A stretch of DNA of 64,000 nucleotides from an uncultured Flavobacteriaceae bacterium (lineage in GTDB: Bacteria > Bacteroidota > Bacteroidia > Flavobacteriales > Flavobacteriaceae), in NCBI GenBank assembly GCA_963768325.1, contig CAVYIL010000005.1, positions 44,172-108,171 of the forward strand, in the 5' to 3' direction. The stretch's first letter is position 1; every line of letters starts with the position of its first letter. The notes beneath the pieces were generated by a model. The model was given only the letters and a program-made list of their open reading frames with translations. It did not search any database and was not told the DNA's origin. The translations under genes were made by a program, and so were the position numbers. Shown here one piece after another: positions 43,460-63,408 of the stretch.

Positions 43460-44509
43460 GTCATACCCTAAAACAAAGAAGTTTCTTTTTTAGGTCTTCC
43501 CCTTCTTTTCTTTTTAGGTTCATCATCATCTCCACCGACAACATCACCATTCTTGTCTTTTTCAACAAAAATATTATATGGTTTCCAATTTGGATCAACA
43601 GGTTCATCCTTCGGAGCATACTGATTTTCTCGCATAGCAGTTGCCATTTCAATGACTTCTTTTTTCTTTAAATCAAAACAATCAATATCTTTTGATTCTT
43701 TTATAGTACCATCAATATTTCTATATATTTCCTTATCGTGTATAAGGTTATACCTATTGCGTTGCCCCTTTACAGAAACAACATCTATAAAAGAATCTTT
43801 AAATTCCTTTATTGACAATGCCCATGTCATGGGTTTAAGATCATTGGGTTTCTTAACTGCTTCAAATATATCTCCACTCATATTTTTTCTATCTCCTTCA
43901 ATGTTTTGGTTTTATCCCTACTGACTTTTGGATTGTCCGAAAGGGGGAATTCTAATCCTGTTTCAACAATTTCAAATTCCTTTATTATAATTTTATCTAA
44001 ATCTTTTTCATGTATTCCTCTATAAGAACCATACGTTCTCAGTTGATGTTTACATTGGTTCATCCAATTCTTTATCCCACCTATACCATGATAGGTTTTT
44101 CTAAATGGTTTTCCATCTAGAAACATCTGATATAATTTTGTGGACTTTCCCCTACCTAATGATACTGCCATGTTGCCTACAAAATATTTTTAACAATATA
44201 CAGTACATTAAAAAATAGGAAGATTCCTATTATAATCAGTACACCGAGTTTTACTTTATTATCATTTTTTTCTAAAAACTTTTTTGGTTTTTTCTTCCTA
44301 GTCATAATTTTTCTACCTCTTTACATATAGTTAATTTATCAATTCTTTTTTCTAATTTTTCTACCTTCTTTAGAAGTTTATCATATTCTTCTCTTGAGAC
44401 ACTATCGTCTTTCCATACTAAATCCGATGCAGATACTACATCGGAAAGTCCCGTACCTTTACCTGTACCGTTTGATATCGTGATAAACCCACCATCGATC
44501 TTATGATTA

Positions 44510-59455: not shown

Positions 59456-60971
59456 TTAGAAAAAATCTTGTCCTTTTTTTCTGCACCACTCTGCCAACTT
59501 ACACTTGACTTCTTTATGTGGGAATTTTTCCCTTTTATATAGAACCTTTCGTGCTTCATAGTGTTTCACAAAATGACCATAACTATCCACAAAGTCAATC
59601 AGCATAGCAACGGTTTTTGTTTTGTGTAATCGTAGGGTTCGACCAATTGATTGTAACACCCGAACCTTGCTTTTTGTAGAAGATGAGAAAATTATATTAT
59701 GTAGGTTTTTTATGTTGATCCCTGTTGAGAAGGTCGGGTAAGATGCTACAAGTATTGCATCCTTTTCATTTTCCATTTGTAGTCTTATCTTTTCCCTATC
59801 ATCACCACTAACTTTACCATCAACATAAAAGATTTTTTTCCTACCCTCTTGCAATAGTTTTTCATATATCCAAGTTCCATGTTCAATTTTTCTAAAGAGA
59901 ATTAAAGTGTTCTCTTTTCTTGTCATAGCATAATCACAAATTAATTTTTGTCGAGGGTTGGTAACATCTTCCATAAACTCCTGTTGTTCAATCCAGTCAA
60001 GTCTGTTTCAATTTTTTATTTATATCGTTAGGGTATTCTATAACAACTGATTTTATATTAAGAACTGTAGCAAGTCCCTTGTCCATCATCTGCTTACTTG
60101 TAATTGCCTTGTACACTTCACCGAACATAGAAATGATTTGATACTTGTTTAATGCTCCGTCCCTTAGTGTACCTGTACATCCCATGCGGTAGTGTGCTTT
60201 CGTAGTTTCTTTCAAAATTTTTAAAAGGGACTTTCCCTCTTTGGGATGTCGTACTGTGTGAACTTCATCTGTGATAACAGTTTCAAATTGTTTGAAGTAA
60301 CTAAAACTTTTTTCTCGTATCAATGGCATAAGACTTTGCCATGTGCTTATGTATATCTTAGCATTGTCATTATCTTTATCCTTACCACCAACTATGGTAT
60401 GAGTCGGGATAGGATTTCCATAATCTTTAAAATCATATTCCATTTGATTGACTAATGAGATAGTAGGGACAATTAATAAAACCTTTCCTTCGGTATGCTC
60501 CATGCACCAACGTATAAACATATAGATAAGCAAACTCTTACCACTACTGGTTGCCGACTCTATGACAGATCTTTTATTTTGTATGGCATAGTACAGGGAT
60601 TCCATTTGATGGTCGTATGGGACAATCGGTTTCCCTTTACTTTTTAAATCAAGTGTGCTTACAAAATTATCGATTTCTTTTTTGGTGACTTTAGTCTTTG
60701 AGTTTAATATTTTTTCATCTAGGATTAATTTATATCCTCTCTCTTTACAGAACTCCCACAACTTAGATAGAAGTCCATACGGCATTATGTTAGTTTTTTT
60801 GCTAGTGAGTCTGATCTTTCCATCCCAATAAAACAGGGAAGGGTTCTGCTTACGCAACATCTGATAGTTAGGTACTGTAAAGGTAAAAAAAGAATGGATT
60901 TCGTTTAGAGTGCTTTTGTGATCTGATAATAATTTACATTCTACTTCATTGTAATAATCAACTTTCAACAT
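59456..60971 (-). CDS. uvsW: UvsW SF2 helicase (indel near 60000)
   Basis: WDGKIRL, ATSSGKS, IVPTISLVNQM, STWQS, DEVH, GCTGT, FSTGINIKNLHN, LQSIGRTLR. Confidence 0.96.
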
Positions 60972-61697
60972 CTTGCTACCCTCTGTGAGGTCTTACAAGG
61001 TTATTTATAGAAATTGTGTGTTCGACTTTGTCAATCATATACTTTTATGCGTTCCATTGGAAGTTTGACTCATAATCATATCCATATTTATTTTCTATCA
61101 TATCATAAAGATCCAATAAAAATTGTTCATCTACTGTTGTTCGATTAATATTACAAAACATTACAGAATCTTCGGGAACGGATATTTCAAATTCAAAGTC
61201 TATCATTTTCAAATCAGATTCTGGTCCGATAAAAGTTCCTGTGTATGGTCTGAATCCAGGTTCTACATCATCCAATTCATTCTCTCCCCAAAAATATTCA
61301 GAAAAATCTTGACTTAAATCTTTATAAATACCATAATCTTGATCACAATCAATTAAACAAAAATACTGTGGTACAGTATCTGTTGTTCTACTCCATAGTC
61401 TATATGGTATGCTTTGTGTTGTTAAAGTTTTTGTTATTCCTATTCTATCTATTGGCATAAAATTTCCTTATAGTTATTTATAAATTATCTATCTCTTTTA
61501 AAACTAACTTTCTCATAATAGTTTTAGCAAAATCTTCAAACTCAACATCTGTTATTAATCCATCTTCAGTATTCTTCATTATATGATCATATAGTTTACA
61601 ACAGGCATATCTTTTATTACAAGAAAATTTGCGGTAGTAACATTCCTCACATCGGTCTTCGCAATCACCTTCTTTTTTAATAATGTATTCAAGAGTT

Positions 61698-61886
61698 TCA
61701 ATTTTGTTCATCTATATTTTTCTTGGTTTCTTTTTCTAATAAATCGGTTAAATCATGTACCGAATACACCGAAGTCAAATCTTTTTGCGATTCCAATGTC
61801 CATTTTGTTCTCAACTTTCTAACCTTTGCGGTAATAGGAATACTAGTGATAGTAATATCGGGAGTCGGAAATCTGCATACTCTCAT
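61698..61886 (-). CDS. Mini protein carrying the gp23 segment AK(S)RKLK..W(T/S)..E..QDL
   Basis: MRVCR..ITAKVRKLRTKWTLESQKDLTSVYS vs T4 gp23 IEAKSRQLKAAYSIELAQDLRAVHG. Confidence 0.75.
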   Translation of the reverse strand: MRVCRFPTPDITITSIPITAKVRKLRTKWTLESQKDLTSVYSVHDLTDLLEKETKKNIDEQN

Positions 61887-62050
61887 TTCTTTTTCTTTTT
61901 TGGTTTTACATATTTATATTTTAATGCAAAAACAAATCCCGATGGTTGGGACATAGGTTGTACTCCAACAATCTGGTTTGCGATCATGCTAGGATATGCC
62001 CTTCTAAATGCAGGAAGAATTGTCCGTAGTACAGGTTTACAAACTCTCAT
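61883..62050 (-). CDS. 55-aa mini protein carrying the gp23 Gol-peptide segment
   Basis: Not in ORF track: MRVCKPVLRTILPAFRRAYPSMIANQIVGVQPMSQPSGFVFALKYKYVKPKKKKK; ATGA overlaps at both ends. Confidence 0.85.
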   Translation of the reverse strand: MRVCKPVLRTILPAFRRAYPSMIANQIVGVQPMSQPSGFVFALKYKYVKPKKKKK

Positions 62051-62139
62051 GGCAAATTGGTAACTTTAATTTTCTTTATGTACAATGGGATATATGGTGA
62101 CCATATATACTTACTCATAGGATCTCTACAAACTCTCAT
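62047..62139 (-). CDS. 30-aa mini protein carrying a gp23 C-terminal-like Y.PY(I/V)PL segment
   Basis: Not in ORF track: MRVCRDPMSKYIWSPYIPLYIKKIKVTNLP; ATGA overlaps at both ends. Confidence 0.65.
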   Translation of the reverse strand: MRVCRDPMSKYIWSPYIPLYIKKIKVTNLP

Positions 62140-62691
62140 ATCTTTTCTATTGCTTCTATTTTTTCTTGCTTCTGTCGTTTCTTATAGTGGTCACATTCCT
62201 TGTGTATATACTTTCCTTTTTTTCCTCGTCTATCTAGATCAACACAATCATAACATTCACTTTCCATTTCACTATCATAATCGGGATCGCATACAACTAA
62301 CCATTTTTCTTCATTTATATAATCTTTTGATTCATCGTCCAATACTAGGTTGGAATATTTAGGATGTTTGGTATTGATCTTAAATCTGTACGGACAAGAT
62401 CCAACTTTTCTTTTACAGTTATTCATAGTTTTTCTATCTCATTTAGTTTATCATTTTTATCGTGGTAAAAAATTATAACCTTAGTTCTATTATCCACACC
62501 TGTTAATTTTTGTTCGGTGATCCAGTTTCCATATTGGTCATTTCCACTCCATGGAGTGTACATATTTTCGGCATAATTACAAACATCTACTTTTATTATT
62601 TCAACGGATGGTTGTGTTTCTAACCAAGAATTTATAGTATATTCTATATTAGTTCCAACACCATTATCGTCAAATATTTTACACTTCATTT

Positions 62692-63105
62692 TTACTGACC
62701 ATTTCGGAACTTCTGCCACTCAATATAAGATTTAATATTCCAAGCAAGTCCCTTCTGCTCTGCGGTTATCACTTCCATTTCCTTTAACTCTAACGAGATT
62801 TCATCATAGAGTTCTTGTGCTTTAACCACTTCATCATCCCTGTCTATAAATGCTTGCAGTTCTTTTTCATTGTCGGGCACTACATCATGCTCATGTGCAT
62901 AATATATTCTTTTGTCGGCACGAACCTTTTCAAGATTTGTTTTTGCTTTCAACGCATCCTTTCCTAACCTAGTACACTTGACTATGTGATTAGCAACATG
63001 GATACTGTTTTGAGTAAGTTGAAGTTCAAGATTAGTGCTTTCAAATTTTAAATTCTTAAAACACTCTTGCCTAAAATCTTCTGTAATTTTAAATTGTCTT
63101 TCCAT
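62692..63105 (-). CDS. uvsY: UvsY recombination mediator
   Basis: KRIYY, FIDRDDEV, AWNIKSYIEWQKFRNG. Confidence 0.85.
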   Translation of the reverse strand: MERQFKITEDFRQECFKNLKFESTNLELQLTQNSIHVANHIVKCTRLGKDALKAKTNLEKVRADKRIYYAHEHDVVPDNEKELQAFIDRDDEVVKAQELYDEISLELKEMEVITAEQKGLAWNIKSYIEWQKFRNGQ

Positions 63106-63408
63106 CACTTCTCCTGTTGTAATTCTTCTCTTATCTTTTTTAATTCTTTTGCTATACGTTCTAGAAAAATAACTCCACAAAATATACTAACTCCTATAAC
63201 AAATAAAAAATAGGAGATCATTTTTTCTTACTCTTTTTATTTATTTCGGAAACAACTTCACACCAACATTTTTCACACAAGTCTATATCATCTGTTTCAC
63301 CATCACGATCTGATCCATAACCATGATCATGAGTTATATTAATGTATGCTCCCATTTCAACATCTTCATTTGTAATTTCTTTTTCACACCTATCACATAT
63401 TATTTTAG

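What the first reader, a model, noticed from the sequence alone, without database searches (positions are those of the whole stretch)
61698..62139. Three coupled MRVC mini-genes each encoding a different fragment of major capsid protein gp23, including the Gol peptide: candidate capsid-decoy system
Seen: three consecutive ORFs linked by ATGA overlaps, all starting ATGAGAGT(T/A)TG(T/C)A(G/A)A = MRVC(R/K). 62139-62047 (30 aa) has YIWSPYIPL. 62050-61883 (55 aa) has ILPAFRRAYPSMIANQIVGVQPMSQPSGFVFALKY. 61886-61698 (62 aa) has ITAKVRKLRTKWTLESQKDL. Known: these match three highly conserved blocks of T4-family gp23 (YYAPYVAL/FYCPYVPL; VRRAIPNLIAFDICGVQPMNSPTGQVFALR; AKSRQLKAAYSIELAQDL). The middle block is the T4 Gol region, which binds EF-Tu and activates the Lit anti-phage protease, and capsid proteins also trigger other defences such as CapRel. 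The blocks are in scrambled order, each has its own start and the shared leader, and they lie about 60 kb from the head cluster among accessory genes, which argues against a decayed gp23. Inference: expressed capsid-epitope mimics that titrate capsid-sensing immune sensors, or alternatively poison capsid assembly of competing T4-like phages.
Basis: partly seen in the sequence, partly recalled or inferred. Interest (0 to 1): 0.93.

Follow-up and report, generated by a model that had tools for sequence, protein, structure and literature searches.

The report
Three coupled capsid-fragment mini-genes
A divergent T4-like phage carries three tiny back-to-back genes that each encode one conserved piece of the head-shell protein behind the same five-residue start; similar selected mini-proteins are widespread in uncultured phages, I found no paper describing them, and their function is untested.

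Summary
Three minus-strand ORFs of 30, 55 and 62 aa are joined by ATGA overlaps and all start MRVC(R/K). Each carries one conserved block of a T4-type major capsid protein, matching T4 gp23 residues about 449-460, 95-133 (the Gol region) and 252-305. Together these are the segments of the capsid P-domain.

This is not a decayed gene. The frames are intact and coupled. The Gol ORF scores like a real gp23 on the Pfam model (49.5 vs 51.4 bits).

No orthologue of this locus was found, so selection on it cannot be measured. The design recurs elsewhere:
- Many small stand-alone Gol-block and spine-block proteins occur in metagenomes.
- Fused Gol+spine and spine+C forms exist.
- One short contig has the same Gol/spine split with the same junction.
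- A complete 395-kb phage has the same three blocks in three dispersed genes beside its full gp23.
- One related Gol family evolves with dN/dS 0.09-0.25.

Function is untested. Mimicry is my leading reading, but simple "titration" of Lit-type sensors is doubtful, because free Gol peptide activates Lit.

This scan has already noted the same class on other DNA, in at least 15 genomes. This window adds a compact three-gene version with its own tag.

The parts
62047..62139 (-). ORF1 (P0001, 30 aa): MRVCR leader followed by the capsid C-block (KYIWSPYIPLY). It corresponds to own gp23 390-401 and T4 gp23 about 449-460, a strand of the P-domain beta-sheet.
   Evidence: PYIPLY is identical to the C-terminal block of the fused spine+C mini-protein P0179 (pairwise E 2e-5). 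[quoted passage not shown]
61883..62050 (-). ORF2 (P0002, 55 aa): MRVCK leader, Gol-region block (T4 gp23 95-133) and a KKKKK tail.
   Evidence: Pfam Gp23 gives 49.5 bits, against 51.4 bits for the same segment of the phage's own gp23.
61698..61886 (-). ORF3 (P0003, 62 aa): MRVCR leader, then the I-domain-linker-2 strand and the first part of the spine helix. It corresponds to own gp23 202-255 and T4 gp23 252-305.
   Evidence: Pfam Gp23 gives 26.1 bits (own segment 75.1). There is one in-frame 3-residue deletion and no stop codon.
62125..62139 (-). Leader copy 1: ATGAGAGTTTGTAGA (MRVCR).
62036..62050 (-). Leader copy 2: ATGAGAGTTTGTAAA (MRVCK).
61872..61886 (-). Leader copy 3: ATGAGAGTATGCAGA (MRVCR). 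Both differences from copy 1 are synonymous third-position changes. The similarity to copy 1 extends over 27 nt (81%).
   Evidence: repeat D4
61895..61901 (-). A_AAA_AAG heptamer in the ORF2 frame, 10 nt before its stop. A -1 slip here would read into the ORF3 frame and give a Gol+spine fusion. This is only a possibility.
   Evidence: Sequence read. The ORF3 frame is open for 9 codons upstream of its ATG. No stimulatory RNA structure was found. A natural single-ORF Gol+spine protein exists (P0056).
61911..61918 (-). TATAAATA (T4-type late-promoter consensus) inside ORF2, 25 nt upstream of the ORF3 start. It may be only a by-product of the KYKY codons.
62692..63180 (-). uvsY homologue. It is the upstream anchor of the gene row that holds the mini-genes.
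59997..60971 (-). ORF read by me, on synteny with T4 only, as the uvsW-type helicase and downstream anchor. The mini-genes occupy the position of T4 uvsY.-1/uvsY.-2.
   Evidence: ORF listing; T4 gene order. This ORF was not searched against any family library.

Best explanation
Shown: the three ORFs are intact, translationally coupled mini-genes. Each joins a 5-residue MRVC(R/K) leader directly to one conserved segment of a T4-type major capsid protein. The three segments are the parts that are far apart in the sequence but together build the peripheral (P) domain of the capsid fold. These are the Gol/N-terminal block, the linker-2 strand plus spine helix, and a C-terminal beta-strand. The ORFs belong to a widespread class of phage mini-proteins made of exactly these pieces. 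I found no paper or curated family that describes this class.

Inferred: the products act by mimicry. Each peptide offers the same binding surface as the matching stretch of a full-length or nascent capsid protein, and so competes for whatever reads that stretch. The candidate partners are:
- other capsid subunits or capsid folding intermediates (interference with, or control of, head assembly);
- a host factor such as EF-Tu;
- a capsid-sensing defence protein.

The common leader is read as a locus-specific tag or initiation module. Which partner is engaged is unknown.
For: Anatomy: searches show intact frames, ATGA coupling throughout the uvsY-to-uvsW gene row, and a leader unique to these three ORFs.

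Homology and mapping. [quoted passage not shown] Met98 (Gol block) clusters with His282/Met284 (spine block), so the blocks touch in the folded protein (PMC9546572).

Not debris:
- The Gol ORF scores like a genuine gp23 segment (49.5 vs 51.4 bits).
- ORF3 has diverged strongly (26 vs 75 bits) yet keeps 62 open codons in a 33% GC contig, and its only indel is in frame.

Recurrence elsewhere:
- Dozens of small proteins of 63-150 aa with a Met start carry a Gol block plus unrelated flanks.
- Stand-alone spine-block proteins occur on long contigs.
- Fused Gol+spine (P0056) and spine+C (P0179) forms exist.
- Contig L094 has the same Gol/spine split, a poly-K tail and the identical junction AAGAAAAAGAAATGA.
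- A complete 395-kb phage has a full gp23 plus three dispersed genes that carry the same three blocks.
- ESM Atlas holds clusters of 63-74-aa viral 'Gp23 domain' proteins.

Selection in a related Gol mini-protein family: dN/dS is 0.09-0.25 on the Gol block at dS 0.45-0.94.

Precedents: fragments of a protein can inhibit their parent protein (PMC9245647). The Gol peptide binds EF-Tu (PMC3014915).
Against: - No orthologue of this locus exists in any collection searched, so selection on these three ORFs themselves is unmeasured.
- No expression data are available.
- ORF1 is statistically weak on its own.
- The Gol module model is only moderately confident (pLDDT 70.9, pTM 0.31). The single-sequence model of the fused relative is poor. 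The peptides may not fold alone.
- A free Gol peptide activates rather than blocks Lit.
- In the 395-kb phage the modules derive from the phage's own capsid lineage (50-78% identity). A dominant-negative action would therefore risk self-poisoning.
- Some relatives carry twin-arginine-type export leaders. That is hard to square with a cytoplasmic target.
- A later check recorded in this scan priced the mimicry reading of a sister finding at 13/100 (an unchecked AI note).
Confidence: 0.4

Rival explanations
1. The genes are selected, but the mechanism is not competition with the capsid protein. The Gol module is an EF-Tu-binding handle that modulates or recruits the translation factor. The other blocks and tails are adaptors with other targets.
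For: Gol binds EF-Tu domains II/III, prefers EF-Tu:GDP and inhibits its GTPase. The region is the most conserved part of gp23, and gp23 has been proposed to contact EF-Tu in all hosts (PMC3014915). Gol blocks are fused to many unrelated domains, as a targeting handle would be. Small RF-1/GGQ-domain genes lie two to three genes upstream of capsid mini-genes in four loci.
Against: It does not explain why spine-helix and C-strand blocks are co-opted in the same way, or why they are fused to Gol or to each other. Export-type leaders on some members argue against a cytoplasmic target. EF-Tu binding was not tested here.
Confidence: 0.17
2. The three peptides reassemble into a miniature P-domain. They would do so as separate chains, or as fusions made by -1 slippage at A_AAA_AAG. 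The product would serve the phage's own head, for example as an assembly nucleator, cap or chaperone-like template.
For: The three blocks are the P-domain parts and contact each other in gp23. Natural pairwise fusions exist (P0056, P0179). A slippery heptamer sits at the ORF2/ORF3 junction with the -1 frame open. Each leader carries one Cys, which could link the three chains.
Against: There is no stimulatory RNA structure at the junction. The ORF1/ORF2 junction has no slippery site. The basic tail after the Gol block is a family feature at the protein level, so the A-rich run needs no frameshift role. The genes sit in the recombination/early-type row, not with the head genes.
Confidence: 0.12
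3. In this phage the pieces are inert leftovers of recombination, for instance carried in with homing-endonuclease traffic around g23. They would be kept open only by chance or by recency.
For: The locus is a singleton with no orthologue. The contig is rich in homing endonucleases, and HNH remnants lie just downstream of its own g23, as segD does in T4. HNH genes lie next to capsid mini-genes in other phages. ORF3 and ORF1 score far below real gp23 segments.
Against: Three adjoining frames are all open, with an expected stop frequency of about 7% per codon at this composition (my estimate). Starts and stops are exactly coupled. The leader is shared and its differences are synonymous. The order is permuted and all non-conserved capsid sequence has been removed. 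The same three blocks are kept as genes in unrelated phages and, where measurable, are under purifying selection.
Confidence: 0.13
4. Assembly indel errors split what is really one or two genes into three frames.
For: The ORF2/ORF3 junction lies in an A-rich run. The contig's own g23 also needs a +1 shift near codon 9 to join its true start.
Against: An independent short contig (L094) shows the same Gol/spine split with the same overlap. The ORF1/ORF2 junction is not a homopolymer. Every junction has its own ATG and full leader, which an indel would not create.
Confidence: 0.04

Closest known systems
Gol region of T4 gp23 in the Gol / Lit / EF-Tu exclusion system (prophage e14)
   Same: ORF2 is homologous to T4 gp23 95-133, which covers the Gol region as I recall its limits. 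In T4 work, a short free peptide of this region is biologically active: it binds EF-Tu.
   Different: In T4, Gol is part of the full capsid protein, and the free peptide is a laboratory construct that turns the defence on. Here it is a natural separate gene with its own leader and basic tail. It sits beside two other capsid pieces. No Lit or EF-Tu link was shown.
T4-type major capsid protein gp23 and vertex paralogue gp24 (Pfam PF07068, HK97 fold)
   Same: There is sequence homology in three blocks that form the P-domain core.
   Different: The products are 30-62 aa instead of 440-520 aa. They have no A domain, insertion domain or propeptide, so they cannot form a shell subunit. The block order is permuted and each block has its own start.
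Engineered dominant-negative protein fragments (PMC9245647) and viral pseudosubstrate or mimic proteins
   Same: A short piece of a protein is expressed separately and can compete with the parent protein's interactions.
   Different: Those fragments are laboratory libraries, or mimics of host proteins. Here the phage encodes pieces of its own kind of structural protein. No inhibition has been shown.
Stand-alone capsid/portal-fragment mini-proteins noted earlier in this scan (e.g. e1-4035658, e1-5378195, e1-5342551)
   Same: A small early-region gene carries a conserved block of a core virion protein plus a clade-specific tag. I re-found relatives independently.
   Different: Here the tag is only five residues (MRVC+R/K). 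The three genes are adjacent and coupled, and together they cover all three P-domain segments. Only capsid pieces were found in this phage.

Membership tests
Pfam PF07068 Gp23 (T4-type major capsid/vertex protein) | Sequence match above the curated cut-off (24.4 bits) | tested here: met
   ORF2 scores 49.5 bits and ORF3 26.1 bits. ORF1 has no Pfam hit. A custom capsid profile gives ORF1 7.5 bits, E 0.11 at contig scale.
Pfam PF07068 Gp23 (T4-type major capsid/vertex protein) | Complete HK97-type subunit (P domain, A domain, insertion domain) able to form capsomers | tested here: not met
   The matches cover only profile positions 6-45 and 132-188 of 376, plus about 15 residues near the C-terminus. 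The products are 30-62 aa.
Gol / Lit / EF-Tu exclusion trigger | Homology to the T4 gp23 Gol region | tested here: met
   P0002 residues 11-49 align to T4 gp23 95-133.
Gol / Lit / EF-Tu exclusion trigger | Binding to EF-Tu and activation (or blocking) of a Lit-type protease | not testable with these tools
   No assay was possible. The known biology is taken from PMC3014915.
Gol / Lit / EF-Tu exclusion trigger | A Lit (Peptidase_U49) homologue in the host | tested here: inconclusive
   There was no match in the 81.5%-complete genome that the contig is binned with. The control genomes did not ring either, and the host link is unproven.
Stand-alone capsid-fragment mini-proteins (no description found in print) | A small gene outside the head module that carries only a conserved capsid block plus unrelated flanks | tested here: met
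   The locus lies between uvsY and the ORF I read as uvsW, about 62 kb from g23. The leader and tails are not capsid-like.
Stand-alone capsid-fragment mini-proteins (no description found in print) | Recurrence of the same design in independent phages | tested here: met
Stand-alone capsid-fragment mini-proteins (no description found in print) | Purifying selection on the block in the stand-alone gene | tested here: inconclusive
   Met for a related Gol mini-protein family (dN/dS 0.09-0.25). It cannot be measured for this locus because no orthologue was found.
Programmed -1 ribosomal frameshift site | Slippery X_XXY_YYZ heptamer with an open -1 frame | tested here: met
   A_AAA_AAG lies at 61901-61895, and the ORF3 frame is open upstream of its ATG.
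Programmed -1 ribosomal frameshift site | Downstream stimulatory structure and conservation of the site | tested here: not met
   The fold z-score is 0.11. The L094 relative has only G_AAA_AAG.
Decayed pseudogene of gp23/gp24 | Colinear remnants with stops or frameshifts inside the homologous sequence | tested here: not met
   The order is permuted. There are no internal stops. Every frame change coincides with a full start module.

The most novel reading that the evidence does not exclude
The three peptides are a purpose-built 'P-domain in pieces'. Phages of the T4 kind would express such capsid-segment mimics early, to jam the folding or assembly of a rival phage's capsid protein, or to blind host sensors that read nascent capsid segments. 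The short MRVC leader, or in other phages a Tat-like leader or small domain, would be the delivery or assembly tag. That would be a new class of virus-encoded interference peptides derived from the virus's own structural genes.
Probability: 0.25. Interest if true: 0.9.

Novelty: categorically new. Interest (0 to 1): 0.72.

Why it matters
If these mini-proteins are functional mimics, they reveal a natural strategy: a virus uses short copies of its most conserved structural segments as regulators, weapons or decoys. They would give a direct handle on three questions:
- What reads the Gol region, whose extreme conservation and EF-Tu binding are not yet explained.
- How the capsid P-domain folds and docks.
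- How capsid-sensing defences might be evaded.

They could also provide ready-made peptide inhibitors of T4-type head assembly. This locus is a compact test case: three genes in 442 bp.

Tried and rejected
- DNA search of GenBank phages with the locus found no match.
- Searches with flanking proteins and with the own gp23 found no relatives in IMG/VR.
- The best 80 IMG/VR loci hit with P0002 were all full-length capsid genes.
- A word-indexed search for small homologues of P0002 found only itself.
- tblastn of P0002 and P0020 against GenBank phages found one place per record and no second copies.
- Among 300 genomes of the same bacterial family, one other had a T4-like capsid gene and no fragments.
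- Sequencing runs: none was listed, and no RNA holder was listed.
- Complex prediction of the three peptides with alignments gave no support. This counts neither for nor against binding.
- The AlphaFold model of the fused relative P0056 was poor (pLDDT 49.8). The model of P0002 with an alignment was moderate (pLDDT 70.9, pTM 0.31, helical). Neither was taken further.
- RNA folds at the three junctions showed no structure beyond shuffles.
- The Lit (PF10463) search of the associated genome gave no match, and the controls did not ring.
- Identical copies of two relatives in several samples gave no variation for dN/dS.
- A scan of all 1580 small ORFs of the contig against its 81 large proteins found no fragments of other core proteins. 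Only gp23 pieces and endonuclease or paralogue families appeared.
- Ideas rejected: a CRISPR-like or repeat-spacer origin (the spacings of 89 and 164 nt are unequal); translational bypassing (no matched take-off and landing codons); a simple decayed gp23 or gp24.
- Literature searches for capsid decoys or fragments found nothing relevant.

Full report
**The observation.** On the minus strand, three ORFs run head to tail: 62139-62047 (30 aa, P0001), 62050-61883 (55 aa, P0002) and 61886-61698 (62 aa, P0003). Each start overlaps the previous stop as ATGA. The same overlap joins ORF1 to the upstream 96-aa ORF, and that ORF to the one before it. All three begin ATGAGAGT(T/A)TG(T/C)A(G/A)A, which encodes MRVC(R/K). 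The motif has three exact hits in 64 kb against 0.16 expected. No other ORF of the 164-kb contig starts this way. The two differences between leader copies 1 and 3 are synonymous, and their similarity extends over 27 nt.

**The capsid homology is real.** The window is contig C5:44172-108171 of a 4-Mb binned genome. The phage's own gp23 lies at C5:42085-43365, about 62 kb from the locus.
- P0002 scores 49.5 bits on Pfam Gp23 and P0003 scores 26.1 bits. The cut-off is 24.4.
- Against the own gp23, P0002 is 46% identical (E 2e-14, residues 6-44). P0003 is 35% identical (E 3e-9, residues 202-255). P0001 matches 5 of 12 residues (E 0.002, residues 390-401).
- P0001 alone is weak, with E 0.11 among 1580 small ORFs. 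It is still the third-best capsid-profile hit on the contig and lies next to the best two.
- Through the own gp23 and PDB chains, the blocks map to T4 gp23 residues 95-133 (Gol region), 252-305 and about 449-460.
[quoted passage not shown] Met98 clusters with His282/Met284 (PMC9546572).

The three mini-genes therefore encode the three sequence-distant parts of one structural unit, the P-domain core. Their order is circularly permuted: C, N, middle.

**Not a decayed gene.**
- All non-conserved capsid sequence is gone. The homologous sequence starts right after each 5-residue leader.
- There are no internal stops, and every frame change coincides with a complete start.
- P0002 scores like a genuine gp23 segment (49.5 vs 51.4 bits for the own protein).
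- P0003 (26 vs 75 bits) and P0001 (none vs 42.6 bits) have drifted far from capsid constraints. P0003 nevertheless keeps 62 open codons in a 33% GC contig, with a single in-frame deletion.
- The locus lies in the uvsY-to-uvsW gene row, where T4 has uvsY.-1 and uvsY.-2. The uvsW reading rests on synteny only.

**No orthologue.** I found no orthologue of this locus in GenBank phages, IMG/VR, related bacterial genomes or a 5.8-billion-protein collection. Selection on these ORFs themselves therefore cannot be measured.

**The design recurs.** An exhaustive profile search with P0002 gave 446 hits. Many are complete small proteins of 63-150 aa with a Gol block and unrelated flanks.
- P0019 (76 aa) sits between nrdA and nrdB in nine contigs.
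- The P0157 family (92 aa) joins a twin-arginine-type leader to a Gol block and a basic tail. It lies in a row of small genes next to an HNH gene. Across four members, dN/dS on the Gol block is 0.09-0.25 at dS 0.45-0.94.
- A profile of the spine block found many stand-alone spine-block proteins on long contigs, several of them also with Tat-like leaders.
- P0056 (87 aa) fuses Gol and spine in one ORF and ends where P0003 ends.
- P0179 (113 aa) fuses spine and C-block and ends in PYIPLY, as P0001 does.
- In contig L094 a 66-aa Gol gene ends in a poly-K tail. It overlaps by ATGA a next ORF that starts like P0003. The junction AAGAAAAAGAAATGA is identical to the one in the window.
- A complete 395-kb IMG/VR phage has a full gp23 plus three dispersed genes of 151-163 aa. 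Each carries one of the same three blocks, 50-78% identical to that phage's own gp23.
- Sixteen other long records showed only the full gene. GenBank phages showed no second copies.
- ESM Atlas holds viral clusters of 63-74-aa 'Gp23 domain' proteins.

**The leader and the junctions.** The MRVC leader is specific to this locus. Following a pattern noted elsewhere in this scan (unchecked AI notes), I read it as a clade-specific tag or initiation module. Its origin is unexplained. A canonical A_AAA_AAG heptamer before the ORF2 stop would shift into the ORF3 frame. I found no stimulatory structure. Basic tails after the Gol block are a protein-level family feature. I therefore rate programmed frameshifting as possible but unlikely. 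A TATAAATA motif lies 25 nt upstream of ORF3, but it may simply follow from the KYKY codons.

**Mechanism.** The recurrence of exactly the P-domain pieces, alone or pairwise fused, tagged in many ways and under selection, points to function through likeness to the capsid segment. Fragments of a protein can inhibit their parent protein (PMC9245647). Gol binds EF-Tu (PMC3014915). Several facts weigh against simple sensor titration or assembly poisoning:
- Free Gol activates Lit.
- In the 395-kb phage the modules derive from the phage's own capsid lineage, so a dominant-negative action risks self-harm.
- Some relatives carry export-type leaders.

I therefore give mimicry about 0.4. Alternatives are EF-Tu modulation, a self-assembling mini P-domain that serves the phage's own head, and inert debris.

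**Verdict.** In the literature I could search, the class has no description. The scan has flagged the same class in at least 15 other genomes. This window adds the most compact form: three coupled genes that cover the whole P-domain, each behind a five-residue tag.

Noticed in passing
L001:2900-2961 (minus strand), i.e. contig C5 about 43480-43545, just left of the window: The phage's own g23 has its homologous start (MQRDKELQ..., matching the relatives' MERNEEL.../MNRDKAL...) in a frame that stops after 11 codons. The capsid frame continues in the +1 frame with no ATG, GTG or TTG for 59 codons. This could be a 1-nt assembly error, a programmed +1 shift, or initiation at internal Met60 without the propeptide.
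   Followed up: partly
L001:593-1340 (minus strand), downstream of the own g23: HNH-type homing-endonuclease remnants lie in three frames directly after g23, as segD follows g23 in T4. HNH genes also lie next to capsid mini-genes in L096, L120 and the P0056 contig.
   Followed up: partly
L096:8001-8279, L119, L120, L121; proteins P0172, P0194, P0197, P0198, P0206: Twin-arginine (Tat)-like leaders (RRxF[LF]) are fused to Gol blocks or to spine blocks in mini-proteins of other uncultured phages. An export signal on a capsid fragment is unexplained.
   Followed up: partly
L116:1420-1911, L117:1522-1986, L118:1222-1677 (minus strand); IMG/VR record IMGVR_UViG_3300032132_000001: A complete 395-kb phage carries the Gol, C-block and spine blocks in three dispersed genes of 151-163 aa with extra domains. 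The spine gene shares a C-terminal module (..ERLxDPECDPD.W..) with its neighbouring gene.
   Followed up: partly
L096:7165-7371, L119:512-724, L120:1-183, L126:1822-2169: A small RF-1/GGQ-domain (peptidyl-tRNA-hydrolase-like) gene lies two to three genes upstream of the capsid mini-gene in four loci. At the same syntenic place, one lineage has Tat-Gol and another has spine+C.
   Followed up: no
L095:57-269 and 327-545: The Gol mini-protein P0137 and the next ORF share a C-terminal module (DKLKxEQKRIDxLxKxIxDF). The third ORF carries what may be a degenerate spine-like motif (..QRLKSNWQF..). That resemblance was seen by eye only.
   Followed up: no
window, whole: TATAAATA occurs 34 times against 13 expected, 29 of them on the minus (coding) strand. 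This is consistent with T4-type late promoters. One lies before the 137-aa gene (61475-61482) and one before the ORF I read as uvsW (61002-61009).
   Followed up: no
window 61478-61711 and 62136-62426 (minus strand): Both ORFs flanking the trio are small Cys-rich proteins without family hits. A first-reader note (e1-5458823) places 61478-61711 in an expanded Cys-rich family at 46-52 kb. One member of that region starts MRIC (window 47348).
   Followed up: no
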